Program-made: the position numbers and the translations under genes
The notes under the pieces: model-generated
Database searches by the model: none
Seen by the model: the letters and a program-made list of their open reading frames with translations, nothing else
What the model was told of the DNA's origin: nothing
Source: Candidatus Omnitrophota bacterium
GTDB lineage: Bacteria > Omnitrophota > Gorgyraeia > Gygaellales > Profunditerraquicolaceae
Direction: 5' to 3'
Assembly (NCBI GenBank): GCA_043800555.1
Contig: JAZDMX010000003.1
Span: 240,033 to 304,032, forward strand
DNA: 64,000 bases
Shown: positions 196 through 64,000 of the stretch, in pieces
Layout: each line of letters starts with the position of its first letter
How positions within the stretch are numbered: the first letter of the stretch is position 1

Positions 196-684
196 TTAGG
201 AAGGGCTCAAGAGCTTAATAGTTTTGCCTTTAAATTCGATTTCCGCTGCGTCTATCCCGATCCTTTTGACCTTAGCGCCTTCGATCATGTCCCCCGTAAC
301 GACAATCTTATTGTTGATTAAGGCGTAGCTTTTGCCTTGTTCAAAAAACACGCCGTTTAAGACGAATTCTTCCTTATCGGCGAAGGCACTCTTTGCTATT
401 GGAGCAGGAGGGATGGTCTTTTTGGCAGGGGCCGGGTGAATTTGCGGTGTTGTTTGCGTCAGGACAATCTCAGTCTCGCGCGAAAGCGATTCTTCCCGGG
501 GGCCATAGTAGTTATACGCGTAATTGCCCAGGGCTAACCCCGCGCAGACTACGAAGATATAGACCAATAAGGGGTTGGTTTTTGTGCCGGCCGCTCCTGC
601 GCCCCGGGTTTTTTCTCCGTCAGCTCCACCTTGAGTTTTATGCGATATATGCATGCCTATTTTCTCCGGGTATTCTTTCTCCAA
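196..684 (-). CDS. hypothetical membrane-anchored protein (one N-proximal TM helix; C-terminal beta-rich domain faintly GspC/PilP-like)
   Basis: 162-aa ORF with hydrophobic segment LLVYIFVVCAGLALG; no catalytic motif recognised; transcribed divergently from the PilZ operon. Confidence 0.45.
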   Translation of the reverse strand: MEKEYPEKIGMHISHKTQGGADGEKTRGAGAAGTKTNPLLVYIFVVCAGLALGNYAYNYYGPREESLSRETEIVLTQTTPQIHPAPAKKTIPPAPIAKSAFADKEEFVLNGVFFEQGKSYALINNKIVVTGDMIEGAKVKRIGIDAAEIEFKGKTIKLLSPS

Positions 685-738
685 ACTCTATTATAACAAA
701 AACTATCCGGTTGTAAAGTTATGAAAATGCGGATGTTT

Positions 739-837
739 CGAAAATGGGGACGCGAAAATGGGGACGTTTCTACTTTTCTAGAAGCTAAGGCCGGAAAAGT
801 AGAAACGTCCCCATTTTCGCCAACGTCCCCATTTTCG
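739..837. repeat. long palindromic intergenic repeat, copy A (left arm carries a 14-nt tandem duplication CGAAAATGGGGACG x2, mirrored on the right arm)
   Basis: Near-perfect inverted repeat: ...GGGGACGTTTCTACTTTTC, 15-nt loop TAGAAGCTAAGGCCG, then GAAAAGTAGAAACGTCCCC...; the same arms recur at 5726, 46516 and 63891. Confidence 0.85.
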
Positions 838-865
838 CCTCCGGTTTTCATTTCAAAGAGCGTGA

Positions 866-894
866 TTGACAGGCTTTGGAAATTGTGCTATATT
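866..894 (+). promoter_or_regulatory. sigma70-type promoter candidate for the PilZ operon (TTGACA-17nt-TATATT)
   Basis: TTGACA at 866-871, TATATT at 889-894, about 45 nt upstream of the first CDS. Confidence 0.5.
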
Positions 895-940
895 TTGTAA
901 ATGGAATTAAGCCGCATCTTCTTCTTATGGGAGAGTCAGT

Positions 941-1288
941 TTGCCGGTGAATGCAGAAGCTAGAAGACGGGCTCAAAGGATAGGGCTGCGCGCCGAAATG
1001 CGCTACCACATAAGGGGTGGCGTATCGGAATTCGTTAACGTTGTCTCCAATAATATAAGTTCCACGGGGGTGAGTTTTAACGCAAGCAGCTATATCCCCC
1101 CGCAAACGCCGTTAATGCTGGAGATTGACGTTCTTTCCAGGGTCTTGCATCCAATCGGGAGAGTGGCCTGGTGCCAGGCTTTGCCGCACGCTTACCGTAA
1201 TAGCTTGGGGGTGGAATTCTTGGAGATGGATCCGTTGGAAAAGAATTACCTGGAAGATTATATCAACATGCAAAAAAGCAGGTTTTAG
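941..1288 (+). CDS. PilZ domain protein (c-di-GMP receptor)
   Basis: 115 aa; RRRAQR (RxxxR) and NISSTG (D/NxSxxG) PilZ signature motifs; TTG start. Confidence 0.75.
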   Translation: MPVNAEARRRAQRIGLRAEMRYHIRGGVSEFVNVVSNNISSTGVSFNASSYIPPQTPLMLEIDVLSRVLHPIGRVAWCQALPHAYRNSLGVEFLEMDPLEKNYLEDYINMQKSRF

Positions 1289-1308
1289 GGAAAGGAAAAA
1301 CAGAGAAG

Positions 1309-1500
1309 ATGGCAACCGAAGAGACTAAGGCGCCGGCTCAGGCCGAAGCTAAGCCGAAAGAAGAGAAGCAGACGAATTGTTTAAGCTGTAATAAACCGAT
1401 TAAGAAAATAAGGCGTTATTATCGCGACGGAAAATACTATTGCACTAAAAAATGCTGGTCTAATTTTATCCAGAAGGCTAAAGGCGAAGGTAACAAATGA
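1309..1500 (+). CDS. small zinc-ribbon protein (CxxC...CxxxC), Lys-rich
   Basis: 63 aa ORF; CLSCNK ... CTKKC; ATGA overlap with the next gene. Confidence 0.55.
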   Translation: MATEETKAPAQAEAKPKEEKQTNCLSCNKPIKKIRRYYRDGKYYCTKKCWSNFIQKAKGEGNK

Positions 1501-1877
1501 GCTCCGGAATCGAGAAAAGAAAGCACCCCAGGCTTAAGCAGAAGCTTCCTTTTAAGGTAGCGGCTAACGGGTATGATTTTTCAACGACTACCCAGAATAT
1601 CAGTTGTGTGGGCGCGTATTGCCGGATAAAGAAATACATACCTCCGTTTACTAGAGTAGCGATTAAATTGACCCTTCCGATTAAAAAAGCGGATAATAAG
1701 GCAAAACGCACGATTGACTGCGAGGGCGTAATCGTCAGGACCGAAGATAAGGATAACAGCGGTTTTAATATAGCTATCTTTTTTAACCGGATCAATGATT
1801 CCCAGCGTAAGATTATAAACGCGTACATAAACCAATTTTTGCCGCAGGGCGTATCCGCAGCAGCCTCTTTAAAGTAA
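1497..1877 (+). CDS. PilZ domain protein (c-di-GMP receptor)
   Basis: 126 aa; RKHPR and NISCVG PilZ motifs. Confidence 0.7.
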   Translation: MSSGIEKRKHPRLKQKLPFKVAANGYDFSTTTQNISCVGAYCRIKKYIPPFTRVAIKLTLPIKKADNKAKRTIDCEGVIVRTEDKDNSGFNIAIFFNRINDSQRKIINAYINQFLPQGVSAAASLK

Positions 1878-1880
1878 GAG

Positions 1881-2408
1881 ATGGGGAAAATAGCCCCCGA
1901 TAAACCCGTTAAGCTTATTATCGGTTTTATTTTTGGCGAAAAGGCATTCTTTGAGAAGGCAAAACTTGATCTAACCAGGCATTTCGGAAGGATTGACTTT
2001 GAAAGCGGGCCAATGCCTTTTACCGTGACCGGATATTACCGGGAAGAATTTGGCGAGGGCCTTTCAAGGGTATTCGTAAGTTTTTCCAAGTTCATCAAGC
2101 CGCAGCAAATTTCCGGCATAAAAATCCTCACTAATAAGATTGAAAAGAAGCTGACAAGAGAGTCAAAGCGCTTGGTTAATATTGATCCGGGTTACCTTGA
2201 TTTGGCTAAGCTTGTTTTGGCTTCGACCAAGGATTATGTCCACCGCATATATTTGAATAAAGGGATATTCGCCGAGATAACTTTGTTTTATCAGGATAAA
2301 AGTTTTCAGGATTGGAAGTGGACTTATCCTGATTTCCGGAGTAAAGAGTATATCGCGATGTTTAACCAGATCAGGAAATTATATGCAGAGCAGGCCCGGA
2401 AAGAATAA
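1881..2408 (+). CDS. DUF4416 family protein
   Basis: 175 aa; sequence pattern recalled for DUF4416; 26-nt overlap with the downstream radical SAM gene. Confidence 0.55.
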   Translation: MGKIAPDKPVKLIIGFIFGEKAFFEKAKLDLTRHFGRIDFESGPMPFTVTGYYREEFGEGLSRVFVSFSKFIKPQQISGIKILTNKIEKKLTRESKRLVNIDPGYLDLAKLVLASTKDYVHRIYLNKGIFAEITLFYQDKSFQDWKWTYPDFRSKEYIAMFNQIRKLYAEQARKE

Positions 2409-3369
2409 GCCGGTTTATTTAGAGTCATTTCAAAACGGCTTGCTTGATGAGGTGGCCGGAAGGCTTTTTGGTTCTTTAGAGTCTTGCGCGATCTGCCCCC
2501 GGAAATGCAAGGTAAACCGGCTAAACGGCGAAAAAGGTTTTTGCGGTTCAGGCTTAAAGCCTAAGGTGTACAGCTATATGGCGCATCACGGAGAGGAGCC
2601 GGCTATTTCAGGCTCGCGCGGTTCAGGCACAATATTTTTCTCGAATTGCAATATGGGTTGCGTATATTGCCAGAACTATGAATTCAGCCAAAATGGCTCC
2701 GGCAGGGAAGTCAGCTTTGAAGAGTTAGCCGGATTTATGCTGGAGTTGCAAGGCATGGGCTGCCACAATATTAATTTAGTTACGCCGACACATCTCCTGC
2801 CGCAAATCCTTAAGGCGTTAAGGATCGCTATTAGCGCCGGCCTGGATATCCCGTTAGTTTATAATACCGGCGGATACGAATCAGCCGGGATAATAAAATT
2901 ATTGAGGGGGATTATCGATATCTATTTACCGGATATGCGCTATGCCGGAGCAAGGCAGGCGATTGAGTTTTCCGGCGCGCCGGATTATCCGGAAAACAAC
3001 CGGGAATCCGTAAAAGAAATGTTTTGCCAGGCGGGGATAGCCAAAATGGATGGATCCGGAATAATTGAACGCGGCATAATCATAAGGCACCTTGTTTTGC
3101 CAGGCGGGGTTAGCGGGACAGAGGAAATCATGGAATTCATTTCTAAAGAGATTTCTTGCGAAACTTACGTAAGCTTGATGAGCCAGTATTTGCCGTATCA
3201 TAAAGCGGCGGAATTCAAAGGGATAAACCGCAGGTTAAAGTTTGGCGAATATAAAGAGGCGCAAAGGGCCATGGAAAAATACGGCTTGTATAACGGCTGG
3301 GTTCAGGAGTCATTCGGTTTGGAAAGGTTTGCGGGAGTAAACATAAAATCAGTGCTTAAAGATGAATAA
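2383..3369 (+). CDS. radical SAM protein, PflX-like (COG1313 family)
   Basis: 328 aa; N-terminal Cys cluster CAICPRKCKVNR...GFCG followed by the radical SAM motif CNMGCVYCQN. Confidence 0.8.
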   Translation: MQSRPGKNKPVYLESFQNGLLDEVAGRLFGSLESCAICPRKCKVNRLNGEKGFCGSGLKPKVYSYMAHHGEEPAISGSRGSGTIFFSNCNMGCVYCQNYEFSQNGSGREVSFEELAGFMLELQGMGCHNINLVTPTHLLPQILKALRIAISAGLDIPLVYNTGGYESAGIIKLLRGIIDIYLPDMRYAGARQAIEFSGAPDYPENNRESVKEMFCQAGIAKMDGSGIIERGIIIRHLVLPGGVSGTEEIMEFISKEISCETYVSLMSQYLPYHKAAEFKGINRRLKFGEYKEAQRAMEKYGLYNGWVQESFGLERFAGVNIKSVLKDE

Positions 3370-3883
3370 GGCGGATTTTCTTGGCAAGCTGTCAAAGGTA
3401 AAAGGCCTTTTATACCAGAAGCTTTTTAATATTAACGATACCGAGCAAAAAGTGGCCCTGGGTTTCGGCATAGGGGTATTTACCGGGATTTTACCGGGGG
3501 CCGGTCCTCTGGCAGCTTTGTTTTTGGCGGTACTTTTTAAGGTTAACCGTGCCAGCGCCCTTATCGGCAGCATCCTTACCAACACTTGGCTTAGCCTGGT
3601 AACTTTTCTCTTGGCAATCAAAATCGGTTCTGTTATATTTAGGGTTAGCTGGCAAGGCCTTAGAAGCGAATGGGCCTTTATCGCAAAGAACCCGGCTGGG
3701 AAGGATTTATTCACTATGCCTGTCTTGAAAGTTGCCCTCCCGGTGATAACCGGGTATTTTGTAATTTCTTTGTGTTTGGGCGGAATTTCTTATTTAATCG
3801 CGTTGATCGCGCTAAAAAACAGGCGCGCTGCCTGGCGCACGGGGATAACCGGTTCGCCGTATCCATGGCGCAAAAGGATTTAA
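3362..3883 (+). CDS. DUF2062 family membrane protein
   Basis: 173 aa; multiple TM helices; GILPGAGP motif typical of DUF2062. Confidence 0.6.
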   Translation: MNKADFLGKLSKVKGLLYQKLFNINDTEQKVALGFGIGVFTGILPGAGPLAALFLAVLFKVNRASALIGSILTNTWLSLVTFLLAIKIGSVIFRVSWQGLRSEWAFIAKNPAGKDLFTMPVLKVALPVITGYFVISLCLGGISYLIALIALKNRRAAWRTGITGSPYPWRKRI

Positions 3884-3887
3884 GATT

Positions 3888-4955
3888 ATGAAGAGTAAAG
3901 TGTATTTTACCCCCGTAGATTCTGCGGATAATATCCAGGATATAAACGTAAAGACCAAAAATCTGCTAAAGAAAAGCAGGCTTTTCGATTTTATCCAAAA
4001 GAAGGATAAAACGGCGCTAAAAATGCATTTTGGCGAAGAAGGAAATACCGGTTTTGTAAGGCCTGAACATGCGGGGGTTATTTGCCGTGAAATCCTTGAT
4101 AGGGGGGCGGAAGTTTTTCTATCGGACGCAAACACCCTTTACCGGGGAAGGCGCCTTGAGGCCGGAGAGCATTTGGCGCTTGCAAAGGAGCATGGTTTTG
4201 TCAAAGAAATTACCGGCGTAGATGTAATAATTCCTGATGACCATGATGCGCAAGCTAGCGTCGAAGTAGCGATTGGCCAGAAATTCATTAAAGCCGCTAA
4301 GGTTGCCCGTGTTTTTATCGAGGCGGATGCAATTGTCGCTTTAAGCCATTTTAAAGGGCATATATTGACCGGTTTCGGCGGCGCGGTTAAGAACATTGGA
4401 ATGGGTTGCGCTACCAGAGAAGGAAAGCTCGCCCAGCATTGCGATGTTTCGCCGGTTGTCTATTCGAATAAATGCATTGGTTGCGCAGAGTGCCGGAAGG
4501 TTTGCCCGGCAGGGGCAATCCGCATTGAAAATAAAAAGTCCGTAATAGATAAAGCAAAATGTATTGGTTGCGCAAGTTGTATGGCTGCTTGCTCTACTAT
4601 GGCGATGTTCATAGATTTTGCAGCAGGCGAAAAAACGCAAGATAAAATTGCGGAGTATTGTTGGGCTGTGCTTAGAGGCAAGAAGGCCAAGGCGGCCTTC
4701 ATTAACTTTGCGGTTAAAATCAATAAGGAATGCGACTGTTGGGGCGCAGAAAACCCCAGGATTGCCCCTGATGTCGGGATACTTGCTTCGCGGGATCCCG
4801 TAAGTATCGATAAAGCGAGTTTTGATTTGGTTAATAAGGCTTGCGAAAAGGATATTTTTAAAGCGACGCATCCGGATTCTAATGGGATGAAGCAGCTTGA
4901 ATATGCCCAGGAAATCGGTTTAGGCAGCCTTGATTACGATTTGGTTGCGGTATAA
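3888..4955 (+). CDS. DUF362 domain protein with two 4Fe-4S ferredoxin motifs
   Basis: 355 aa; CIGCAECRKVCP and CIGCASCMAAC (CxxCxxCxxxCP) motifs. Confidence 0.75.
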   Translation: MKSKVYFTPVDSADNIQDINVKTKNLLKKSRLFDFIQKKDKTALKMHFGEEGNTGFVRPEHAGVICREILDRGAEVFLSDANTLYRGRRLEAGEHLALAKEHGFVKEITGVDVIIPDDHDAQASVEVAIGQKFIKAAKVARVFIEADAIVALSHFKGHILTGFGGAVKNIGMGCATREGKLAQHCDVSPVVYSNKCIGCAECRKVCPAGAIRIENKKSVIDKAKCIGCASCMAACSTMAMFIDFAAGEKTQDKIAEYCWAVLRGKKAKAAFINFAVKINKECDCWGAENPRIAPDVGILASRDPVSIDKASFDLVNKACEKDIFKATHPDSNGMKQLEYAQEIGLGSLDYDLVAV

Positions 4956-4970
4956 GATTAAGGAGTAAGT

Positions 4971-5465
4971 ATGGCGAATTTCTCATTTGATATTGTTTCT
5001 GAAGTTGACCTGCAGGAAGTGGATAACGCGGTAAATCAAGCCTCTAAGGAACTGGCCCAGCGCTACGATTTTAAAGATAGCAAGGCTTCTATTGTTTTTG
5101 ACCGCAAGGAGGAGAAAATTACCCTGGTTGCGGACAATGATTTTAAGCTGCAGGCGCTTACTGATATGCTGCGAACGCGGCTAGCCAAAAGAGGGGTTTC
5201 CCTTAAATCCCTTAAATTTAACGAGGTTGAAAAGGCTTTCGAAGGCTATTTGCGGCAGTCCGTCCAAGTCTGTATGGGTATTGAAAAGGAAAAGGCAAAA
5301 GACCTGGTAGGGATTATAAAAGGCTTGGGTTTAAAAGCGCAAGCTCAAATAGAAGGTGAGAAGGTAAAGGTGAGCTCATCTAAAAAAGATGAACTTCAGG
5401 CGGTTATCGCGCATTTACGGGGTTTAGATTTTTCCATTCCCCTTAGTTTTGGTAATTACAGGTAA
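4971..5465 (+). CDS. yajQ: YajQ family nucleotide-binding protein (UPF0234; c-di-GMP binding reported in Xanthomonas)
   Basis: 164 aa; the N-terminus MANFSFDIVSEVDLQEVDNAVNQASKE matches the YajQ family. Confidence 0.85.
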   Translation: MANFSFDIVSEVDLQEVDNAVNQASKELAQRYDFKDSKASIVFDRKEEKITLVADNDFKLQALTDMLRTRLAKRGVSLKSLKFNEVEKAFEGYLRQSVQVCMGIEKEKAKDLVGIIKGLGLKAQAQIEGEKVKVSSSKKDELQAVIAHLRGLDFSIPLSFGNYR

Positions 5466-5471
5466 AATGAG

Positions 5472-5490
5472 AAAGGTGATTGTCACCTTT
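5472..5490. promoter_or_regulatory. perfect 8-3-8 palindrome AAAGGTGA-TTG-TCACCTTT (candidate operator)
   Basis: Lies between the yajQ stop and the RBS/start of the small CxxC protein. Confidence 0.3.
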
Positions 5491-5515
5491 CAGGCGTAGC
5501 AAAAAAGGAGGCAAT

Positions 5516-5680
5516 GTGGCGTATCAAAGTGGTGGTGGATTTGGTGGTGGGCCAAGGGAAATGCACAAAGCAACTTGTTCGGAATGTAAAAAGGAGTGCG
5601 AAGTCCCTTTTAAGCCCAGGGAAGACCGTCCGATATACTGCAAGGAATGTTATTCCAAGCGTAAGAACGAAGGACGTTAA
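5516..5680 (+). CDS. small Gly-rich zinc-ribbon protein (CxxC-x17-CxxC)
   Basis: RBS AAGGAGG at 5505-5511 then a GTG start; an in-frame TTG at 5480 is an alternative start. Confidence 0.5.
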   Translation: MAYQSGGGFGGGPREMHKATCSECKKECEVPFKPREDRPIYCKECYSKRKNEGR

Positions 5681-5725
5681 AGTATCAAAGTTAACTGTTG
5701 CCAGCCCCGCCTTCGGCGGGGCGGT

Positions 5726-5813
5726 AAAAACGGGGACGTTTCTAGCAAAAAACGGGGACGTTTCTGCTTTTCCGGCTTTAGGTCCTGGAAAAGTAGAAAC
5801 GTCCCCTTTTTTT
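5726..5813. repeat. palindromic intergenic repeat, copy B (partial left-arm duplication; ends in T7)
   Basis: AAAAACGGGGACGTTTCTAG + AAAAAACGGGGACGTTTCTGCTTTTCC, loop GGCTTTAGGTCCT, GGAAAAGTAGAAACGTCCCCTTTTTTT; preceded by a GC hairpin at 5704-5723. Confidence 0.85.
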
Positions 5814-5833
5814 GCGCAAGGCTTAATTTTAGA

Positions 5834-5861
5834 TTGACAAACTAGAAAATTGTGTTAGAAT
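5834..5861 (+). promoter_or_regulatory. sigmaA-type promoter of the hrcA operon (TTGACA-16nt-TAGAAT with TGn extension)
   Basis: TTGACA 5834-5839; TGTGTTAGAAT 5851-5861. Confidence 0.6.
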
Positions 5862-5867
5862 TTCACT

Positions 5868-5894
5868 TTAGCATTCTTAAGGTGAGAGTGCTAA
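5868..5894 (+). promoter_or_regulatory. CIRCE operator (HrcA binding site)
   Basis: TTAGCATTC-N9-GAGTGCTAA versus consensus TTAGCACTC-N9-GAGTGCTAA; located between the promoter and hrcA. Confidence 0.85.
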
Positions 5895-10345: not shown

Positions 10346-10609
10346 ATGCCGACTTATGAATATGAATGTAAAAACTGTAACAAGGTTTTTGATATATTCC
10401 AGAAAATGACTGATAAGCCCCTTGATAAATGCCCCAAGTGCCATAAGAAAATAAGCCGGCTTATCGGAGGAGGCTCGGGCGTAATTTTTAAAGGCCCCGG
10501 GTTTTACGCCACTGATTACCGTAAGCCAGAAGGCAAAAGCCCTAAATCCAAAGTTCCTTCCTGCGACACTCCTAAAGGAAATTGCGGCAGTTGCCCACAC
10601 GCCCATTAA
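10346..10609 (+). CDS. FmdB family zinc-ribbon protein
   Basis: 87 aa; MPTYEYECKNCNKVF...CPKC signature of the FmdB family. Confidence 0.7.
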   Translation: MPTYEYECKNCNKVFDIFQKMTDKPLDKCPKCHKKISRLIGGGSGVIFKGPGFYATDYRKPEGKSPKSKVPSCDTPKGNCGSCPHAH

Positions 10610-10614
10610 CATAT

Positions 10615-11892
10615 ATGATAAAAATCAAGCCGTTGAAGGCGGTCTATTACAATAAGGACAAAGTCAAGGATCTATCCGAGCTGACTTGTCCTCCTTATGA
10701 CGTAATTTCCCCGCTTGAGCAGGATTATTACTATAATCTTAATCCCCATAATTTTATTCATATCTTATTCGGCAAGGACATACCCGGGGAGGACAAATAC
10801 AAGAGGGCGGGGGTTTTATTTAACAGCTGGCTAAAGGAGAAGGTCCTTATCCAGGATGAAAAGCCGGCCATATATTTTTACAGCCAGCAGTATAATCTCA
10901 AAGGGGAGAAAAAGACCCGTTTGGGCTTTATCGCGCTTTTAGGCTTAGAAGAAAAGAATTCAGGCGTGTTCGGGCATGAACATACGCGGATAGAGGCAAA
11001 GGAAGACAGGCTTAATGTCCTTCGGAGCGTTCAGGCTAATTTGAGCCCGATCTTTATTGTTTCAAGGGACAATAAACGCGTAATCCAGCGGGTTTATTCC
11101 CGGCATATCAAGAATACGCCCGTGTTTATGGAGGCCAAAGACAAAGAGGATACCTTGCATAAAATCTGGAAGATCGATTCAAGCGAAATTTTGTCATTGA
11201 TCCAACAGGGGATGCAGGAGGAAGACGCCTTTATCGCCGACGGCCATCACCGTTACGAAGTTTCCTGCGCTTACAGGGATGAGGCCAAAATGAAGAAGGG
11301 GAGCCTCTCGAAGGACTCGAGCCTTAATTACACCTTAGCTTATTTTACGAATACCGATTGCCGCGGGCTATCGATATTGCCTATCCATCGTTTGTTGAAA
11401 CTGGAAGAACCTTTAGATATGGGAGGTTTCCTTGCGGAGTTAAAGGAATATTTCGATGTTGAGGAAATTAAGGAGAAGTCCCGGCTTTTCTTCCTTATGG
11501 AAAAAGGGGGCCGTTCAGAGCATCTCTTCGGCATGTATAAGGACAAGAAATACTGGCTTTTACGCCTGAAAAATATTAAAATCCTGGATAAGGCGCTTGG
11601 CGATAAGCCCAAGGAGTACCGTTCGCTGGATGTCGCTATTCTTAATCATATAATCCTTAAAGACATATTGGGTTATGATTCGGCGGGTAAGAACAACCTT
11701 AAATATAGCGCTTATAGCGATGATTTTATCGAGGCGCAAGACCAGGAGCCTTTAAGCATTTCTTTTTTCTTAAACCCCGTGAAAATGGAGCAAATTATTG
11801 CCGTGGCCCTGGATGGCAACAAGATGCCGGCGAAGTCGACTTATTTCTATCCGAAGGTATTATCGGGCTTGGTAATTAATAAGCATGACTGA
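10615..11892 (+). CDS. DUF1015 domain protein
   Basis: About 425 aa counted from ATG 10615 (MIKIKPLKA); the six-frame ORF extends upstream to 10582. Confidence 0.65.
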   Translation: MIKIKPLKAVYYNKDKVKDLSELTCPPYDVISPLEQDYYYNLNPHNFIHILFGKDIPGEDKYKRAGVLFNSWLKEKVLIQDEKPAIYFYSQQYNLKGEKKTRLGFIALLGLEEKNSGVFGHEHTRIEAKEDRLNVLRSVQANLSPIFIVSRDNKRVIQRVYSRHIKNTPVFMEAKDKEDTLHKIWKIDSSEILSLIQQGMQEEDAFIADGHHRYEVSCAYRDEAKMKKGSLSKDSSLNYTLAYFTNTDCRGLSILPIHRLLKLEEPLDMGGFLAELKEYFDVEEIKEKSRLFFLMEKGGRSEHLFGMYKDKKYWLLRLKNIKILDKALGDKPKEYRSLDVAILNHIILKDILGYDSAGKNNLKYSAYSDDFIEAQDQEPLSISFFLNPVKMEQIIAVALDGNKMPAKSTYFYPKVLSGLVINKHD

Positions 11893-14075: not shown

Positions 14076-14180
14076 GGGGAAAAACCGTCCCGTTGTAAAA
14101 TCCAGCCTTTTCAACAAAGCGCAGGGCGGATTACGCCTTTGAAAACCAAGATAGCCTTAGTTCCTGGGCCGGGGGCTTGT

Positions 14181-15482
14181 ATGCCAAAAAATACTTTAGG
14201 GAAACATCCAGCCTTAAAGATAACCGGTTATGTCATTTTCCTCCTGTTTATTTATTTTCTCCTTCCGTTTTATTCAGTTAGCCGCCTGGGTTTCCTTGGC
14301 TTAGCAATTCTTTTTTTATTCTACCTCATTAATATTGCCGTTGGCGCAGCTATTTTCAAGAGGTATTCGGCAAGGATTTACTCTCTTGATTCCCTTATCC
14401 AGGGCTTGCGGGAGAAACTGAATCTTTTGAGCATTGAATATTGCAAGATCCAGGAGATTAATATCGCCTTGAATGAAAAACATAACCGTTATAACAGCCT
14501 TAGGGGGTTCCTGGAGAAAATAAACCAAAGCTTGGATTTAGGCAAAGTGGCCGATATCATAGCCAGCGGGGTCTTTTCCTTGATTGGCAATAGAAAATGC
14601 GTATGCCTTTTATACCTCGTAGATCCTCAAACGCAAAAACTTTCCCTTTTTAAGGCCAAAAAAGAGGAACCGGGCCTTATTATAAAATCAAAAGAGGGCA
14701 GTATCCTTGATCTTTGGGTCTTAAAGCATGCCAGCCCTCTTTTGATCGAGGACATTAAGAATGATTTCCGGTTTGACCTGGAAAAACTCAAGCTTCAGGA
14801 TCCACGGGATTTTTCTTCGCTAATATCTGCCCCCTTCATAGTCGAGAATAAATTCCTGGGGATAATAAGGCTGGATAATAAACAAGCGGGTTTCTTTACC
14901 CAGGACGACTTAAGGTTTTTGGTTTCCATTTCTGATTTGGGCAAGCTTGCCCTGGAAAGCAGTGAACTCTTTCGGAAGACCCAGGACCTGGCCATACATG
15001 ACTCATTGACCTTGCTTTACACAAAAGGGTATTTCTCCGAACGCCTGAAAGAAGAATTTAAAAGGTGCCTCCGGCAGGCTATGCCATTTTCGGTGCTTAT
15101 GCTGGATATCGACTTTTTCAAAAACTATAATGACAAATTCGGGCATGCCGCAGGGGACATAGTTTTAAAAGAAATCAGCCGGATTATCCGGGAGTCTTTG
15201 AGCAAGTTTAACGCTATAATTAGCCGTTTTGGAGGGGAGGAGTTTTGCGTTGGTTTAAGCGGTATGGATAAACATGGCGCATGCGACGTTGCCGAAGCAT
15301 TGCGGGAACGGATAGGAGAAGAAAAGATAATCTTAAGGCGCACGGTGAGCCATGTTAGCGTCTCTATTGGGGTGGCGAATTTTCCTGCCGATGTTACGGA
15401 AGAAGACGAATTAATCCGCGCTTCGGATAAGGCTTTATATAAGGCAAAAGAAAAGGGGAGAAACCGCGTATGCCATATATAG
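14181..15482 (+). CDS. membrane-anchored GGDEF diguanylate cyclase with GAF-like domain
   Basis: GGEEF active site (RFGGEEFCVGL); two N-terminal TM helices; an alternative TTG start lies at 14139. Confidence 0.8.
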   Translation: MPKNTLGKHPALKITGYVIFLLFIYFLLPFYSVSRLGFLGLAILFLFYLINIAVGAAIFKRYSARIYSLDSLIQGLREKLNLLSIEYCKIQEINIALNEKHNRYNSLRGFLEKINQSLDLGKVADIIASGVFSLIGNRKCVCLLYLVDPQTQKLSLFKAKKEEPGLIIKSKEGSILDLWVLKHASPLLIEDIKNDFRFDLEKLKLQDPRDFSSLISAPFIVENKFLGIIRLDNKQAGFFTQDDLRFLVSISDLGKLALESSELFRKTQDLAIHDSLTLLYTKGYFSERLKEEFKRCLRQAMPFSVLMLDIDFFKNYNDKFGHAAGDIVLKEISRIIRESLSKFNAIISRFGGEEFCVGLSGMDKHGACDVAEALRERIGEEKIILRRTVSHVSVSIGVANFPADVTEEDELIRASDKALYKAKEKGRNRVCHI

Positions 15483-16459
15483 CGATTTTAGCGCTTTCTA
15501 CAATATTCAGCGCATTTTTCATAGCGAGGATATTTAGAATAAGGAAACAAAAGAAATCCGGCAGGCTTAGAGACCTTGAATTTGAATGCGTCGGGTTGAA
15601 TAAAGAAAAGTTGAGGATGATGGAAGAAAACAGTCGCCTGAAGGATGCGACTGATGAAACAATCGCGCTTTATAACTTGACGAAAAATATTTGCGGCCCT
15701 TTGGATCAGGAGAAAGTATTTGCTGTTTTCAAAGAATCCGTAAGCGATTACCTCGGCGCGCAGGATTGCCGCTTGTTGGCAAAAGAAACGGATTTATCTA
15801 TTTACGGCGCTTTTACTATCCTGCCCTTAATTATACAAAAGGATATTGCCGGGTATCTGGCCATCCGGGGCATATCCGGCAATGATGCGGAGAAATTCCA
15901 GATTCTTGCCCAACAGTTTCTGGTCGGCTTTAAAAGAGCGCTTTTATATAAAAAAATGCAGGAGTTATCCATTACCGACAGCTTGACGCGTTTGTTTAGC
16001 CGGAGGCATTTTTTAGAGAGGTTTGCAGAAGAATTGCGGCGTTCCGGGAAATTTAAATATAATTTTTCTTGCCTTATGATTGACATCGATAAATTCAAGG
16101 ATTTTAACGATAAATACGGCCATTTGGTTGGCGATGCCATACTAAGGGAAGTGGCCGGAGCCATCAAAGAAGCTATCCGCCAAATTGATTTTGTGGGCAG
16201 GTACGGAGGAGAGGAGTTTTCCGTGATCTTGGTTGAGACGGGTAAGCAGGAGGCTCGTTTTGCGGCAGAACGTTTGCGGGTAGCGGTAGAGTCAAAGAAC
16301 ATCAAGGTTTATGACGAAGAATTGAAGGTTACCGTAAGTATAGGCATAGCTACTTTTCCTGATGACGGGATAACCCTGGAAGCAGCCATAGAAGGAGCGG
16401 ACAAGGCCTTGTATCAGGCAAAAGCAGCCGGCAGGAACAGAGTAAAATATTTATCGTAA
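15470..16459 (+). CDS. GGDEF diguanylate cyclase (N-terminal TM plus coiled coil)
   Basis: 329 aa; RYGGEEFSVIL; 13-nt overlap with the upstream GGDEF gene. Confidence 0.8.
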   Translation: MPYIAILALSTIFSAFFIARIFRIRKQKKSGRLRDLEFECVGLNKEKLRMMEENSRLKDATDETIALYNLTKNICGPLDQEKVFAVFKESVSDYLGAQDCRLLAKETDLSIYGAFTILPLIIQKDIAGYLAIRGISGNDAEKFQILAQQFLVGFKRALLYKKMQELSITDSLTRLFSRRHFLERFAEELRRSGKFKYNFSCLMIDIDKFKDFNDKYGHLVGDAILREVAGAIKEAIRQIDFVGRYGGEEFSVILVETGKQEARFAAERLRVAVESKNIKVYDEELKVTVSIGIATFPDDGITLEAAIEGADKALYQAKAAGRNRVKYLS

Positions 16460-16503
16460 ATGGCTTGTAAAATCCGGGATTTTAATATAAAATACTGGTT
16501 TAT

Positions 16504-17424
16504 ATGAATAAGAAATTTATTATCGGAATCGACTTAGGGGGGACTAACCTGAAAGTCGCCCTTTTGGACTTAAATTACCATATAAAAGATAGGGAAATGT
16601 TAAGTACCCGCACTTTTATGGAGAAAGGCCAGCTTATCTCCGGTATTGTCCATTCCGTAAACAGATTTATAAAGTATAACAATTTAAGCAAGGCGGAGGT
16701 TTTAGGGGTAGGTTTGGGCCTGCCCGGCCCAACCGATGCCGACAACGGCGTGGTTCATTTTTTCCCCAATATTCCGGGATGGAAAGAAGTAAAACTAAGG
16801 GGTATTTTAATAAAAAAACTCGCCCTGCCCGTTATTTTGGATAATGACGCCAAGCTTATGACTATCGCGGAGCATAGGCTTGGCGCAGCGCGCGGTTTTA
16901 ATAATGTTTTGTGTATGACCCTGGGTACCGGTATCGGCGGCGGGCTGATCATTAATGGAAAACTTTATAGGGGTTTTAATAATGTTGCCGGTGAAGTAGG
17001 GCATGTGCCGATCAATGAAAAAGGCGTTTCCTGTAATTGCGGGGCTTCAGGCTGCCTGGAGGCTTACGTGGGAAACCGCAGGATCGCTTTTGAAGCCAGG
17101 AAGTCTTTTAAACGCAATATAACGCTTGAAGAATTAAGCGGTTTGGCTGCCAAGCATAATAAAATTGCGGTGGACGTTTGGCGTAAAATAGGCGGCCATT
17201 TAGGTTTTGCTTTGGCAGGGGTAGTTAATTTGTTGAATTTGGACGCGATAGTGATTGGCGGAGGAGTGGCTGAAGCAGGAAAGGTTTTGTTCGATAATAT
17301 AAACAGCGCGCTCCAAGCTCAAGCCATGAGCGTGCAGGCCAGGCGGGTAAAGGTGTTGAAGGCGAAATTGGGAAGCGAAGCGGGTATAATCGGCGCCGCG
17401 ATAATGGTTAAAGAGGGTTTATAA
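16504..17424 (+). CDS. ROK family sugar kinase (glucokinase-like)
   Basis: 306 aa; IGIDLGGTNLKVAL N-terminus; CNCGASGCLE zinc motif of ROK kinases. Confidence 0.8.
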   Translation: MNKKFIIGIDLGGTNLKVALLDLNYHIKDREMLSTRTFMEKGQLISGIVHSVNRFIKYNNLSKAEVLGVGLGLPGPTDADNGVVHFFPNIPGWKEVKLRGILIKKLALPVILDNDAKLMTIAEHRLGAARGFNNVLCMTLGTGIGGGLIINGKLYRGFNNVAGEVGHVPINEKGVSCNCGASGCLEAYVGNRRIAFEARKSFKRNITLEELSGLAAKHNKIAVDVWRKIGGHLGFALAGVVNLLNLDAIVIGGGVAEAGKVLFDNINSALQAQAMSVQARRVKVLKAKLGSEAGIIGAAIMVKEGL

Positions 17425-41471: not shown

Positions 41472-42035
41472 ATGAACATCGCCAATAAGATTTCCACCTT
41501 CAGGATTTTAAGCGTGCCGTTTTTTATCGCCTCCTTGGCGTATTACTGCCCTCAAAGAAACTACCTAAGGTTTATAGCGTTAGGTATTTTTATGCTGGCA
41601 GCGCTTTCGGATGCGGCTGACGGTTATATGGCCAGAAAATCAAAACAGCAGTCAAAAGCCGGGCTTATACTGGATCCTTTGGGGGATAAATTGCTGCTTA
41701 TGAGCGCTTTTATCTGCCTCTATGCCAACACGTATCTGTCTCCCAGGTTCCCGCTTTGGGTGATCCTTATCGTAATCAGCCGCGATGTAATTATAATCCT
41801 GGGGGCGATTGTCGTTTATATCGTAAAGCAGAATATCAATATCATACCTACTTACTGGGGAAAAATATCCACTATCGCTCAAGTGCTGGCGGTCGTCTCC
41901 GTTTTGCTGCAGCTAAAATATTCTCCCTTTTTCTGGTGGTTGGCAGTGGCCTTTACGGTGATATCCGGGGCTCTTTACGTAAACAGGGGGTTTATCCTAC
42001 TCTATGGCTTGGACGGTTCTCGGAATAATCATTAG
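41472..42035 (+). CDS. pgsA: CDP-alcohol phosphatidyltransferase (PgsA-like)
   Basis: 187 aa; DAADGYMARK...LDPLGDK (CDP-OH_P_transf motif). Confidence 0.75.
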   Translation: MNIANKISTFRILSVPFFIASLAYYCPQRNYLRFIALGIFMLAALSDAADGYMARKSKQQSKAGLILDPLGDKLLLMSAFICLYANTYLSPRFPLWVILIVISRDVIIILGAIVVYIVKQNINIIPTYWGKISTIAQVLAVVSVLLQLKYSPFFWWLAVAFTVISGALYVNRGFILLYGLDGSRNNH

Positions 42036-42633
42036 TTATATTTTTGGCTCGATTCCCACTGCTTATATTTTCGGAAGGGTTATAAAGGGAGTTGATATCC
42101 GTAAATTCGGCTCCGGCAATGTGGGCGCCACCAACGCCTTCAGGCTTTTAGGCAAAGGCTGGGCAGTAGTCGTATTGGCCTTAGATATATTAAAAGGGTT
42201 CTTGCCGGTAGTAATCATACCGGCCTCTATAGGCATAAGAGCCGGTGTTTCGCTGGAAACATTTTGCATGCTTGCCGGCATAAGCTGTATCTGCGGGCAT
42301 AACTGGAGCATTTTCCTGGGTTTTAAGGGAGGCAAAGGGGTGGCTACGACTTTAGGGGTTTTACTGGGGCTTTCAATTAAGATAGCCGGTTTGAAGGCCA
42401 TCTTGGGCGTAGCTATTCTGATCTGGCTGGCCGTATTTATTATCAGCAGGATTATTTCCCTGGCTTCTGTTTTGGCGGCCTTGAGCTTTCCCGTATTAAC
42501 GGTTTTATTCAAACAATCCATCAGTTTAACCTCGATAGTTACGCTTTTAGCCGTATTTATCATATACCGCCATAGGTCCAACATCAAGAGGATACTTAAT
42601 GGCAAAGAACCCCGCTTAAGCTTCAAGAAATAA
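42004..42633 (+). CDS. plsY: glycerol-3-phosphate acyltransferase PlsY
   Basis: 209 aa; GSIPTAYIFGR...GSGNVGATNAFR. Confidence 0.85.
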   Translation: MAWTVLGIIISYIFGSIPTAYIFGRVIKGVDIRKFGSGNVGATNAFRLLGKGWAVVVLALDILKGFLPVVIIPASIGIRAGVSLETFCMLAGISCICGHNWSIFLGFKGGKGVATTLGVLLGLSIKIAGLKAILGVAILIWLAVFIISRIISLASVLAALSFPVLTVLFKQSISLTSIVTLLAVFIIYRHRSNIKRILNGKEPRLSFKK

Positions 42634-46515: not shown

Positions 46516-46581
46516 AAAAAGGGGGACGTTTCTACTTTTCCCGCGGCTAAAGCTAGAAAAGTAGAAACGTCCCCATTTTTT
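46516..46581. repeat. palindromic intergenic repeat, copy C (simplest form: A5-stem-loop-stem-T6)
   Basis: AAAAAGGGGGACGTTTCTACTTTTCC, loop CGCGGCTAAAGCTA, GAAAAGTAGAAACGTCCCCATTTTTT. Confidence 0.85.
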
Positions 46582-63890: not shown

Positions 63891-64000
63891 AAAAAGGGGG
63901 ACGGAAAAAGGGGGACGTTTCTACTTTTCCCGCGCTAAAGCCAGAAAAGAAAAAGGGGGACGTTTCTACTTTTCCCGCGCTAAAGCCAGAAAAGTAGAAA
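63891..64000. repeat. palindromic repeat, copy D: tandemly expanded (left arm + loop repeated twice), truncated by the window end
   Basis: AAAAAGGGGGACG | GAAAAAGGGGGACGTTTCTACTTTTCC-CGCGCTAAAGCCA-GAAAAG | AAAAAGGGGGACGTTTCTACTTTTCC-CGCGCTAAAGCCA-GAAAAGTAGAAA... Confidence 0.85.

What the first reader, a model, noticed from the sequence alone, without database searches (positions are those of the whole stretch)
866..5465. Eight-gene overlapping operon combining c-di-GMP receptors with an rSAM/DUF module: PilZ, Zn-ribbon, PilZ, DUF4416, PflX-like radical SAM, DUF2062, DUF362 (4Fe-4S), YajQ. Candidate undescribed system
The genes overlap or abut each other (ATGA overlaps, a 26-nt overlap and 3-4-nt gaps) behind one strong promoter, TTGACA-17-TATATT. 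This implies co-translation as one unit. The operon encodes three predicted c-di-GMP effectors: two single-domain PilZ proteins and YajQ. These bracket a radical SAM enzyme of the PflX/COG1313 type, a DUF4416 protein overlapping it, a DUF2062 polytopic membrane protein and a DUF362 ferredoxin-like Fe-S protein. None has an assigned pathway role. Two GGDEF cyclases lie 9 kb downstream. No AMMECR1/MEMO partner, which is the usual context for PflX-like enzymes, is present. A second-messenger-gated, membrane-associated radical-SAM redox module is a plausible but uncharacterised function.
Basis: partly seen in the sequence, partly recalled or inferred. Interest (0 to 1): 0.72.

Follow-up and report, generated by a model that had tools for sequence, protein, structure and literature searches.

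The report
Conserved PilZ and radical-SAM operon
This is a real, tightly packed operon from an uncultured Omnitrophota bacterium, but only six of its genes (two c-di-GMP-sensor proteins, a zinc-ribbon protein, DUF4416, a radical-SAM enzyme and a membrane protein) stay together across the phylum; the other three genes are passengers, and nothing yet shows that the six work as one machine.

Summary
The genes, junctions, Pfam assignments and the TTGACA-17-TATATT promoter are all present, and the promoter is conserved in five relatives. A ninth gene (a CxxC-x17-CxxC zinc finger) and a hairpin/T-run terminator complete the unit.

In 80 Omnitrophota species genomes, PilZ–Zn-ribbon–PilZ–DUF4416–rSAM–DUF2062 is conserved (PilZ2 74/76, rSAM 66/68, DUF2062 43/50). 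The closest relatives carry 1–3.5 kb of other genes between DUF2062 and DUF362/YajQ, so this genome appears to have lost them.

Synteny is weak evidence here. Unrelated upstream genes are equally conserved (aroB 47/55, SPOR 42/48). Other genes are often inserted inside the enzyme half: an M48 peptidase in 20/73 loci and an acyl-CoA ligase in 12/57. Outside the phylum, DUF4416 (7 contexts) and the rSAM (5 contexts) never sit beside each other, a PilZ gene or DUF2062.

The parts
752..842 (.). REP-like palindromic repeat element upstream of the promoter. It is not part of the operon's function and marks the 5' boundary.
   Evidence: The two arms are 27 nt long and perfectly complementary. The fold energy is -69 kcal/mol, z = -11.3. 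Related copies lie at 5721-5815, 46517-46579 and 63906-63969: 9 motif matches against 0.02 expected.
866..894 (+). Sigma-70-type promoter with an extended -10 box (TTGACA-17-TGcTATATT)
   Evidence: It matches 11 of 12 positions. The -35 box is invariant and the -10 box is conserved at the same position in L001, L002, L004, L005 and L016.
941..1288 (+). PilZ1, a single-domain PilZ protein (115 aa, TTG start, GGAGAG ribosome-binding site). Conserved core.
   Evidence: PF07238, 37.7 bits. RxxxR is present in 57/57 orthologues and [DN]xSxxG in 55/57. It lies next to the Zn-ribbon gene in 56/57 loci.
1309..1500 (+). Basic zinc-ribbon protein (63 aa, CxxC-x17-CxxxC). Conserved core.
   Evidence: The four cysteines are kept in 76/76 orthologues. 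Median identity is 65%. The only family match is a sub-threshold LIM hit.
1497..1877 (+). PilZ2, a single-domain PilZ protein (126 aa), joined to the Zn-ribbon gene by an ATGA overlap. Conserved core.
   Evidence: PF07238, 44.6 bits. RxxxR is present in 74/77 orthologues and [DN]xSxxG in 76/77. The Zn-ribbon to PilZ2 junction is tight in 75/75 loci.
1881..2408 (+). DUF4416 protein (175 aa). Conserved core. It has an alpha/beta sandwich fold with a weak resemblance to HPPK.
2383..3369 (+). PflX-type radical SAM enzyme (328 aa). It has a CX3CX2C motif (C89, C93, C96) plus four invariant N-terminal cysteines (C35, C38, C42, C54). Conserved core.
3362..3883 (+). DUF2062 polytopic membrane protein (173 aa). 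It is the last gene of the conserved core.
   Evidence: PF09835, 71.6 bits. Present downstream in 43/50 species. The junction with the rSAM is tight in 38/57 loci and interrupted in 18/57.
3888..4955 (+). DUF362 protein with an inserted 2x[4Fe-4S] ferredoxin domain (355 aa). Passenger gene.
   Evidence: PF04015, 138.7 bits, plus Fer4. It lies within 10 kb of DUF4416 in only 2/44 species.
4971..5465 (+). YajQ/DUF520 protein (164 aa). Passenger gene.
   Evidence: PF04461, 199.8 bits; NF003819, 190 bits. It lies within 10 kb in only 5/44 species.
5480..5680 (+). Its likely start is GTG 5516. Passenger gene.
   Evidence: PF23477, 67.5 bits; TIGR04272, 66.3 bits. Sequence read. It lies within 10 kb in 5/44 species.
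5701..5815 (+). 3' boundary of the unit: a short G+C hairpin, then a REP-like 22-bp hairpin followed by a T7 run. This is a likely intrinsic terminator.
   Evidence: Fold energy -54.1 kcal/mol, z = -6.3. Sequence read. The next promoter is at 5834-5861.

Best explanation
This is one real transcription unit but not one eight-part system. It is a composite.

(1) A six-gene block is inherited throughout Omnitrophota: PilZ1, a basic zinc-ribbon protein, PilZ2, DUF4416, a PflX-type radical-SAM enzyme and a DUF2062 membrane protein.

(2) Three unrelated housekeeping genes follow it: DUF362 Fe-S protein, YajQ and a CxxC zinc finger. They abut the block only in this genome, most simply because genes that separate them in close relatives were lost.

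The block itself has two parts. The PilZ-Zn-ribbon-PilZ trio is almost never split (one insertion among 132 junctions). I infer that it is a c-di-GMP receptor unit. The binding motifs are shown; binding itself and the target are not. The enzyme half (DUF4416, rSAM, DUF2062) tolerates inserted genes. Outside the phylum, DUF4416 and the rSAM each occur alone in unrelated neighbourhoods. I therefore regard them as separate housekeeping-type proteins rather than obligate partners.

My working guess for the enzyme half is a membrane or envelope-lipid process. This rests on inference from the accessory and fused genes. The rSAM is a PFL-activase-like enzyme with a probable second Fe-S cluster and an unknown substrate. 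DUF4416 is probably a small phosphate- or nucleotide-handling enzyme. DUF2062 is an integral membrane component. Control of these enzymes by c-di-GMP is possible but unproven.
For: Composite nature:
- Census over 80 species genomes: PilZ2 74/76, Zn-ribbon 73/75, PilZ1 51/69, rSAM 66/68, DUF2062 43/50. By contrast DUF362 is 2/44, YajQ 5/44, CxxC 5/44 and hrcA 0/38.
- The nearest relatives L001, L004 and L005 have two to four other genes between DUF2062 and DUF362/YajQ, drawn from a HisKA-like membrane protein, a lipoprotein, a bestrophin-like protein and CstA.

Two sub-modules (junction statistics):
- PilZ1/Zn-ribbon is tight in 56/57 loci and Zn-ribbon/PilZ2 in 75/75.
- PilZ2/DUF4416 is interrupted in 8/77, DUF4416/rSAM in 21/73 and rSAM/DUF2062 in 18/57.
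- The inserted genes are an M48 BepA/LoiP-like lipoprotein (20 loci), a long-chain fatty-acid-CoA ligase (NF004837, 510 bits against a 476 cut-off; 12-14 loci), a SagB-type nitroreductase (7 loci), a BamD-like lipoprotein with a 700-aa protein (3-4 loci), and two-component genes.

Synteny is not specific to this block. Unrelated upstream genes are equally conserved: aroB 47/55, SPOR 42/48, HD-GYP 42/46.

Independence outside the phylum:
- None of 7 DUF4416 contexts (KSB1, Planctomycetota, Synergistota and unclassified lineages) has an rSAM, PilZ or DUF2062 gene nearby.
- None of 5 rSAM homologues at 37-46% identity (Methylocystis, Monoglobus, Vescimonas, Collinsella, Natronorubrum) has such neighbours.

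c-di-GMP receptors: the motifs are conserved across orthologues.

Envelope/lipid lead:
- DUF4416 is fused to AnmK (42-member cluster, Poribacteria), to an RfaE-type adenylyltransferase (Synergistota) and to an M48 peptidase.
- DUF4416 neighbours include an acyl ligase with PlsY and GpsA (L087), GpsA (L083), and AccD with LptD (L081).
- DUF2062 is listed in flexirubin-type lipid-pigment clusters.

rSAM fold. DUF4416 invariant charged residues.
Against: - Stop/start overlaps are common inside the core. DUF4416/rSAM overlap in 44/73 loci and rSAM/DUF2062 in 31/57. This is typical of proteins made in fixed ratio.
- Same-strand order is kept over DUF4416 identities as low as 50%.
- In the divergent genome L078 the block is broken, yet PilZ-domain genes still sit directly upstream of both DUF4416 and the rSAM; the one before the rSAM looks like a STAS-PilZ fusion (read by eye).
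- Only 7 and 5 out-of-phylum contexts were sampled, and the rSAM ones come from large replicons filed as plasmids.
- The envelope/lipid theme was not tested statistically, and envelope genes are common.
- No experiment exists for any component.
Confidence: 0.55

Rival explanations
1. The six-gene core is a single functional system. The c-di-GMP-loaded PilZ1 and PilZ2, bridged by the zinc-ribbon protein, dock onto and gate a membrane-associated pathway. In that pathway DUF4416, the PflX-type rSAM and DUF2062 act in sequence on one substrate, perhaps a lipid or envelope precursor.
For: - The order is conserved across the phylum on the same strand, with frequent overlapping stop/start codons.
- One conserved promoter sits ahead of PilZ1.
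- PilZ motifs are intact in nearly all orthologues.
- In L078, PilZ genes remain next to both halves after the block was split.
- A fatty-acid-CoA ligase is inserted precisely between the rSAM and DUF2062 with tight junctions in 12-14 species.
Against: - Unrelated flanking genes (aroB, SPOR, HD-GYP) are just as syntenic.
- The enzyme half is interrupted by unrelated genes in 10-32% of species, depending on the junction.
- L014 has no rSAM homologue between DUF4416 and DUF2062.
- DUF4416 and the rSAM have no shared neighbourhood in any of the 12 out-of-phylum contexts.
- Small pilZ genes are reported next to quite different Omnitrophota loci (bioRxiv 10.1101/2023.11.21.568195).
Confidence: 0.25
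2. The genes have no functional relationship at all. The block is phylogenetic inertia: housekeeping genes packed into one operon in a streamlined genome. The PilZ trio serves another target, for example the divergently transcribed ExeA/GspB-like secretin-assembly genes or type IV pili.
For: - The conserved block extends about 7 kb upstream through HD-GYP, SPOR, SH3 and aroB genes. An ExeA-like (AAA_22) and GspB-like pair is transcribed divergently from PilZ1 in 30-32 of about 62 species.
- Outside the phylum, DUF4416 sits in tight operons with many unrelated genes, including folE, purB, a thiL-like gene and phoU.
- PilZ proteins are classical regulators of pili and secretion (established knowledge).
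Against: - Downstream of DUF2062 the synteny stops abruptly, whereas the six genes persist. Some selection is therefore keeping them together.
- Overlapping reading frames are maintained.
Confidence: 0.15
3. One reading: all eight genes form one c-di-GMP-gated, membrane-associated radical-SAM redox module. DUF362 is its Fe-S electron carrier and YajQ is a third c-di-GMP receptor.
For: In this genome the genes are contiguous, with gaps of 4-15 nt, and have no evident internal promoter or terminator. NCBI's curated model names the YajQ family as c-di-GMP-binding.
Against: - DUF362 accompanies the core in 2/44 species and YajQ in 5/44.
- Where present, they are separated from the core by 0.9-6 kb of unrelated genes.
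Confidence: 0.05

Closest known systems
Glycyl-radical-enzyme activases (pyruvate formate-lyase activating enzyme, PflA; PDB 3c8f)
   Different: Identity is only 17%. The equivalog HMMs fail: TIGR02493 scores 21.5 against 231.75, and NF008356 scores 16.4 against 375. The enzyme is about 80 residues longer and has four invariant N-terminal cysteines, probably a second cluster. No glycyl-radical enzyme is in the operon, and none of the annotated genes in the homologues' neighbourhoods is a glycyl-radical enzyme.
AmmeMemoRadiSam system radical SAM enzyme (TIGR04337)
   Same: Both belong to the broad PFL-activase-like branch. By my recollection, TIGR04337 enzymes also have an N-terminal Cys-rich segment before the CX3CX2C motif; this was not tested.
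   Different: The enzyme scores 17.6 bits against a cut-off of 220. No AMMECR1 or Memo gene is in the operon. It is a different family, so the absence of those partners carries no information.
Single-domain PilZ c-di-GMP receptors (for example MapZ, PlzA, DgrA)
   Same: Both proteins pass the Pfam PilZ model. They keep RxxxR and [D/N]xSxxG, the motifs that contact c-di-GMP.
   Different: Here two diverged paralogues always flank a basic CxxC...CxxxC zinc-ribbon protein. I know of no such trio described, and their target is unknown.
YajQ family (Xanthomonas XC_3703, E. coli YajQ)
   Same: There is a full-length match above the curated cut-off: NF003819, 190 bits against 146.
   Different: It is not linked to the conserved core (5/44 species). 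c-di-GMP binding is documented for only some family members (established knowledge, not tested here).
6-hydroxymethyl-7,8-dihydropterin pyrophosphokinase (HPPK/FolK)
   Different: No sequence or profile support: hhalign probability 0.1, and no PDB hit at E <= 10. The Foldseek E-values are not significant. ACT and ribosomal-protein-S6-type ferredoxin folds score nearly as well.
DUF2062 genes of flexirubin / aryl-polyene-type lipid pigment clusters
   Same: It is the same Pfam family. In those clusters the gene also sits beside an AMP-binding ligase and acyltransferases, as it does in about 12 Omnitrophota loci.
   Different: No polyketide-like synthase, ACP or LolA genes are present here. The role of DUF2062 is unknown in those clusters too.

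Membership tests
PilZ domain c-di-GMP receptors (PF07238) | Match to the family HMM above the gathering score | tested here: met
   37.7 bits (PilZ1) and 44.6 bits (PilZ2) against a cut-off of 22.5
PilZ domain c-di-GMP receptors (PF07238) | RxxxR and [D/N]xSxxG ligand-contact motifs | tested here: met
   Window sequences: RRAQR and NISSTG in PilZ1; RKHPR and NISCVG in PilZ2. Orthologues: 57/57 and 55/57 for PilZ1; 74/77 and 76/77 for PilZ2.
PilZ domain c-di-GMP receptors (PF07238) | Actual binding of c-di-GMP | not testable with these tools
   Needs ITC, DRaCALA or a similar assay
Radical SAM superfamily (PF04055) | CX3CX2C cluster motif, HMM match and partial TIM-barrel fold | tested here: met
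Glycyl-radical-enzyme activases (PflA/NrdG type) | Match to the equivalog models | tested here: not met
   TIGR02493 21.5 against 231.75; TIGR02495 24.8 against 131.15; NF008356 16.4 against 375
Glycyl-radical-enzyme activases (PflA/NrdG type) | Cognate glycyl-radical enzyme encoded nearby | tested here: not met
   None among the nine operon genes. None is named among the annotated genes of the five out-of-phylum neighbourhoods.
AmmeMemoRadiSam system | rSAM matching TIGR04337, with AMMECR1 and Memo partners | tested here: not met
   17.6 bits against 220. No such domains are in the operon. The rest of the genome was not searched.
YajQ family (NF003819 / PF04461) | Full-length HMM match above the curated cut-off | tested here: met
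   190.4 bits against 146; PF04461 199.8 bits
DUF4416 (PF14385), DUF2062 (PF09835), DUF362 (PF04015) | HMM match above the gathering score | tested here: met
   208.2, 71.6 and 138.7 bits
HPPK (FolK) superfamily, considered for DUF4416 | Sequence or profile homology | tested here: not met
   hhalign probability 0.1. Profile searches of the PDB found nothing at E <= 10.
HPPK (FolK) superfamily, considered for DUF4416 | Shared fold | tested here: inconclusive
   DUF362 2/44 and YajQ 5/44, against 66/68 for the rSAM
Known anti-phage defence systems (PADLOC) | Match of any component to a defence-system model | tested here: not met
   The only hit is a ferredoxin-motif match of DUF362 to BrxP at 20.6 bits

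The most novel reading that the evidence does not exclude
The six-gene core is an undescribed, Omnitrophota-wide effector pathway. A PilZ-Zn-ribbon-PilZ complex senses c-di-GMP and switches a membrane-anchored trio that remodels an envelope lipid or precursor. The trio consists of a PFL-activase-like rSAM with two clusters, an HPPK-like phosphotransferase (DUF4416) and DUF2062. This would be the first radical-SAM enzyme placed under direct c-di-GMP control.
Probability: 0.15. Interest if true: 0.75.

Novelty: new variant of a known kind. Interest (0 to 1): 0.4.

Why it matters
If the core proved to be one system, it would link c-di-GMP signalling to radical-SAM chemistry. It would also give first functional handles on three large orphan families:
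- DUF4416: 2,410 representative clusters at 50% identity.
- The PflX-type rSAM: more than 8,000 clusters at 90% identity, with homologues found here in Bacteria and Archaea.
- DUF2062.

As it stands, the value is more modest. The work defines the true conserved unit and removes two of the proposed parts. It shows that synteny within Omnitrophota is a poor guide to function. It also gives testable leads: a never-split PilZ-Zn-ribbon-PilZ trio, a probable auxiliary cluster in the rSAM, a charged invariant site in DUF4416, and recurrent envelope/lipid neighbours.

Tried and rejected
- **Literature.** There are no papers for DUF4416 or COG1313. 'pflX' returned only unrelated hits. DUF2062 appears only in gene lists. 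'Omnitrophota' with 'PilZ' found only a report of pilZ genes beside giant genes.
- **Solved structures by sequence.** Nothing for DUF4416. For the rSAM, only the PFL-AE cluster loop (E = 0.004).
- **HPPK homology of DUF4416.** Fold searches are suggestive and the profile comparison is negative. I kept it as a lead only. No folK gene in the held sequences could be used to build a better profile.
- **DUF4416 as a glycyl-radical-type substrate of the rSAM.** I considered this because a highly conserved loop (116-131, including G128) is modelled with low confidence. I rejected it as the main reading for three reasons. The family's invariant residues are mostly charged and look like an active site. 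No RVxG[FWY]-type glycyl-radical motif (as I recall that motif) is evident in the loop. The out-of-phylum rSAM neighbourhoods contain no DUF4416, and none is on the plasmid-collection replicons.
- **RiPP cluster** (SagB-type dehydrogenase, M48 peptidase, rSAM, small Cys-rich protein). Rejected. The SagB-like and M48 genes are optional inserts. The Zn-ribbon protein is far too conserved to be a precursor peptide.
- **Defence system.** No PADLOC support.
- **Riboswitch or other known RNA in the leader.** Rfam gave only spurious miRNA-like hits on the REP hairpins.
- **Metagenome scan with a diverse DUF4416 alignment.** The afdb50 fold library was unavailable. The window's own DUF4416 is not on record in the contig index.
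- **Plasmid-collection tblastn for DUF4416 and DUF2062.** No matches.

Full report
**Source.** The DUF4416 and rSAM proteins of the window are 100% identical to proteins of a 'MAG: Candidatus Omnitrophota bacterium' on a 304-kb contig.

**Observation.** Every domain call is confirmed by Pfam above its gathering score: PilZ twice, DUF4416, Radical_SAM, DUF2062, DUF362 with two 4Fe-4S motifs, and DUF520/YajQ. NCBIfam adds the YajQ equivalog.

The promoter TTGACA-17-TATATT at 866-894, with a TG extension, is the joint best sigma-70-like site in 7.5 kb. It is conserved in position in five related genomes.

The junctions are as compact as stated, with corrections. There is one ATGA overlap, a 26-nt overlap, an 8-nt overlap, gaps of 3 and 4 nt, and also gaps of 20 and 15 nt. 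A ninth gene was missed: a CxxC-x17-CxxC zinc-finger protein at 5480-5680, probably starting at GTG 5516.

The unit ends at a strong hairpin followed by a T7 run at 5745-5815. The next promoter, at 5834-5861, belongs to hrcA-grpE-dnaK-dnaJ. A sequence that matches my recollection of the CIRCE operator lies at 5868-5894.

**What is conserved.** A scan of one genome per GTDB species with a DUF4416 alignment found 361 loci. The best 80 were fetched, and all are Omnitrophota, though some records are labelled Planctomycetales or Patescibacteria. I mapped the window's proteins onto them.

The order PilZ1, Zn-ribbon, PilZ2, DUF4416, rSAM, DUF2062 is kept almost everywhere. Counts are among loci with enough flanking DNA:

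| Gene | Loci with gene near DUF4416 |
|---|---|
| PilZ2 | 74/76 |
| Zn-ribbon | 73/75 |
| PilZ1 | 51/69 |
| rSAM | 66/68 |
| DUF2062 | 43/50 |
| DUF362 | 2/44 |
| YajQ | 5/44 |
| CxxC protein | 5/44 |
| hrcA | 0/38 |

The closest relatives are L001, L004 and L005, with DUF4416 at 68-77% identity. Each has two to four other genes between DUF2062 and DUF362/YajQ, drawn from a HisKA-like membrane protein, a small lipoprotein, a bestrophin-like protein and CstA. The window's eight- or nine-gene arrangement is therefore specific to this genome, most simply explained by a deletion.

**How much the synteny means.** The conserved region does not stop at PilZ1. Further upstream, on the same strand as the operon, lie HD-GYP (42/46), SPOR (42/48), SH3 (33/51) and aroB (47/55). 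These are functionally unrelated to the block, yet conserved as often. Between aroB and PilZ1 sits a divergently transcribed pair, ExeA-like AAA_22 and GspB-like, present in about half the species. Gene order in this phylum is thus conserved well beyond functional units.

Inside the block the junctions differ:

| Junction | Tight | Room for an inserted gene (gap over 400 nt) |
|---|---|---|
| PilZ1/Zn-ribbon | 56/57 | 1/57 |
| Zn-ribbon/PilZ2 | 75/75 | 0/75 |
| PilZ2/DUF4416 | 67/77 | 8/77 |
| DUF4416/rSAM | 52/73 | 21/73 |
| rSAM/DUF2062 | 38/57 | 18/57 |

The inserted genes are:
- an M48 BepA/LoiP-like lipoprotein peptidase (20 loci)
- a long-chain fatty-acid-CoA ligase (12-14 loci)
- a SagB-type nitroreductase (7 loci)
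- a BamD-like lipoprotein with a 700-aa protein (3-4 loci)
- a histidine kinase with a response regulator

A NIL-domain protein (14 loci) or a HisKA-like membrane protein (11 loci) often follows DUF2062 directly.

On the other side, stop/start overlaps are frequent: DUF4416/rSAM in 44/73 loci and rSAM/DUF2062 in 31/57. In the divergent genome L078 the block is split, yet PilZ-domain genes still precede both DUF4416 and the rSAM.

**Outside the phylum.** DUF4416 is a large family, with 2,410 representative clusters at 50% identity. I examined seven contexts in KSB1, Planctomycetota, Synergistota and unclassified lineages. None has an rSAM, PilZ or DUF2062 gene nearby.

The neighbours differ from case to case:
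- folE
- a thiL-like AIRS gene with gpsA
- an acyl ligase with plsY and gpsA
- an N-acetyltransferase, thioredoxin, accD and lptD
- purB
- phoU with PHO4
- an SDR and a PCC-domain gene

Fusions exist with AnmK (a 42-member cluster, Poribacteria), an RfaE-type adenylyltransferase (Synergistota), a membrane M48 peptidase, and a Mut7-C ubiquitin-like domain.

tblastn against the plasmid collection found rSAM homologues at 37-46% identity in Methylocystis, Monoglobus, Subdoligranulum, Vescimonas and Collinsella, and in two haloarchaea. The five neighbourhoods I inspected share nothing with each other or with the window. Both families thus behave as widespread stand-alone genes, and their adjacency was seen only in Omnitrophota.

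**The parts.**
- *PilZ1 and PilZ2.* Both carry RxxxR and [D/N]xSxxG, and nearly all orthologues keep them. c-di-GMP binding is therefore a sound inference.
- *Zn-ribbon protein.* It is basic, keeps its four cysteines in 76/76 orthologues, and is among the best-conserved members of the block at a median identity of 65%.
- *DUF2062.* It is a polytopic membrane protein. Elsewhere, genes of this family are listed in flexirubin-type lipid-pigment clusters beside AMP-binding ligases.

**Reading.** The best-supported view is a composite operon. A conserved PilZ-Zn-ribbon-PilZ receptor unit is co-transcribed with three orphan proteins. Their accessory and fused genes point, weakly, to membrane lipid or envelope biogenesis. 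In this genome three passenger genes are added.

Whether c-di-GMP controls the rSAM is open, and I put the integrated six-gene system at about 0.25. The trio's target could equally be the neighbouring ExeA/GspB-like secretin-assembly genes. Small pilZ genes are reported beside other Omnitrophota loci.

No known defence system or RNA family is involved. I found no literature on this cluster.

**Verdict.** It is an uncharacterised but ordinary-looking conserved operon built from known domain families. Interest is moderate (0.4). The decisive work is phylogenetic profiling, complex prediction and c-di-GMP/rSAM biochemistry.

Noticed in passing
window 752-842, 5721-5815, 46517-46579, 63906-63969: A dispersed REP-like palindromic repeat with core AAAAnGGGGACGTTTCTAC, forming 22-40-bp hairpins. 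Copies flank the operon on both sides. There are 9 motif matches against 0.02 expected. The downstream copy ends in a T7 run and probably acts as the terminator.
   Followed up: partly
window 684-941, compared with L005 7626-8995: In about half the related genomes (32/64) an ExeA-like AAA_22 ATPase gene lies between the GspB-like gene (window 196-684, minus strand) and PilZ1. In the window that gene is absent and the REP-like element sits in its place, suggesting a repeat-associated deletion.
   Followed up: partly
window 5834-5894: hrcA has its own strong promoter (TTGACA-16-TAGAAT, 5834-5861). It is followed by a near-perfect CIRCE-like inverted repeat, TTAGCATTC-N9-GAGTGCTAA, at 5868-5894, which would be the HrcA operator. 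The CIRCE consensus is from my memory and was not tested.
   Followed up: no
L005 2711-7648 and the equivalent stretch in the other loci: An upstream block of HD-GYP, SPOR, SH3 and aroB genes is conserved across Omnitrophota (42/46, 42/48, 33/51, 47/55). As I recall, it resembles the aroK-aroB-damX arrangement next to pilus or secretin genes in Proteobacteria. This would be an example of ancient synteny without a shared function.
   Followed up: partly
P0143/P0283 (Poribacteria), P0178/P0297 (Synergistota), P0200 (L084 7001-8623), P0215: DUF4416 occurs fused to anhydro-MurNAc kinase (AnmK), to an RfaE-type heptose-1-phosphate adenylyltransferase domain, to a membrane M48 peptidase, and to a Mut7-C ubiquitin-like domain. 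In 20 Omnitrophota loci an M48 lipoprotein gene follows DUF4416. The DUF4416-M48 link therefore recurs independently.
   Followed up: partly
L087 5219-9190; L083 7001-9576: In two distant non-Omnitrophota lineages, DUF4416 lies in a tight operon ending in gpsA. One has an acyl ligase upstream and plsY in between; the other has a thiL-like AIRS gene in between. This is a possible phospholipid-synthesis link. In the window, plsY is 40 kb away at 42025-42630.
   Followed up: partly
L084 6456-8623: GTP cyclohydrolase I (folE) overlaps the start of a DUF4416-M48 fusion gene by 4 nt. This is curious given the weak HPPK-like (folate pathway) fold of DUF4416, but it is a single case.
   Followed up: no
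L078 7362-18176: A divergent Omnitrophota genome has at least six apparent PilZ-domain genes within 10 kb, identified by eye from their RxxxR and [DN]xSxxG motifs. One looks like a STAS-PilZ fusion (16472-17185) and lies directly upstream of the rSAM. A gene that looks like GAF-ANTAR follows the rSAM. None of these domain calls was checked with an HMM.
   Followed up: no
window 5471-5491: A 9-bp hairpin (GAAAGGTGA...TCACCTTTC) lies between YajQ and the CxxC gene. The scan lists it as a minus-strand terminator-like site. It could mark a processing or attenuation point within the transcript.
   Followed up: no
window 10582-11892 and 14139-16459: A DUF1015 protein follows dnaJ. Further on are two adjacent, overlapping GGDEF genes, the first with a GAF domain. 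accD, TAL and lptD lie in the same 20 kb, and these three families also neighbour DUF4416 in the unclassified bacterium L081.
   Followed up: no
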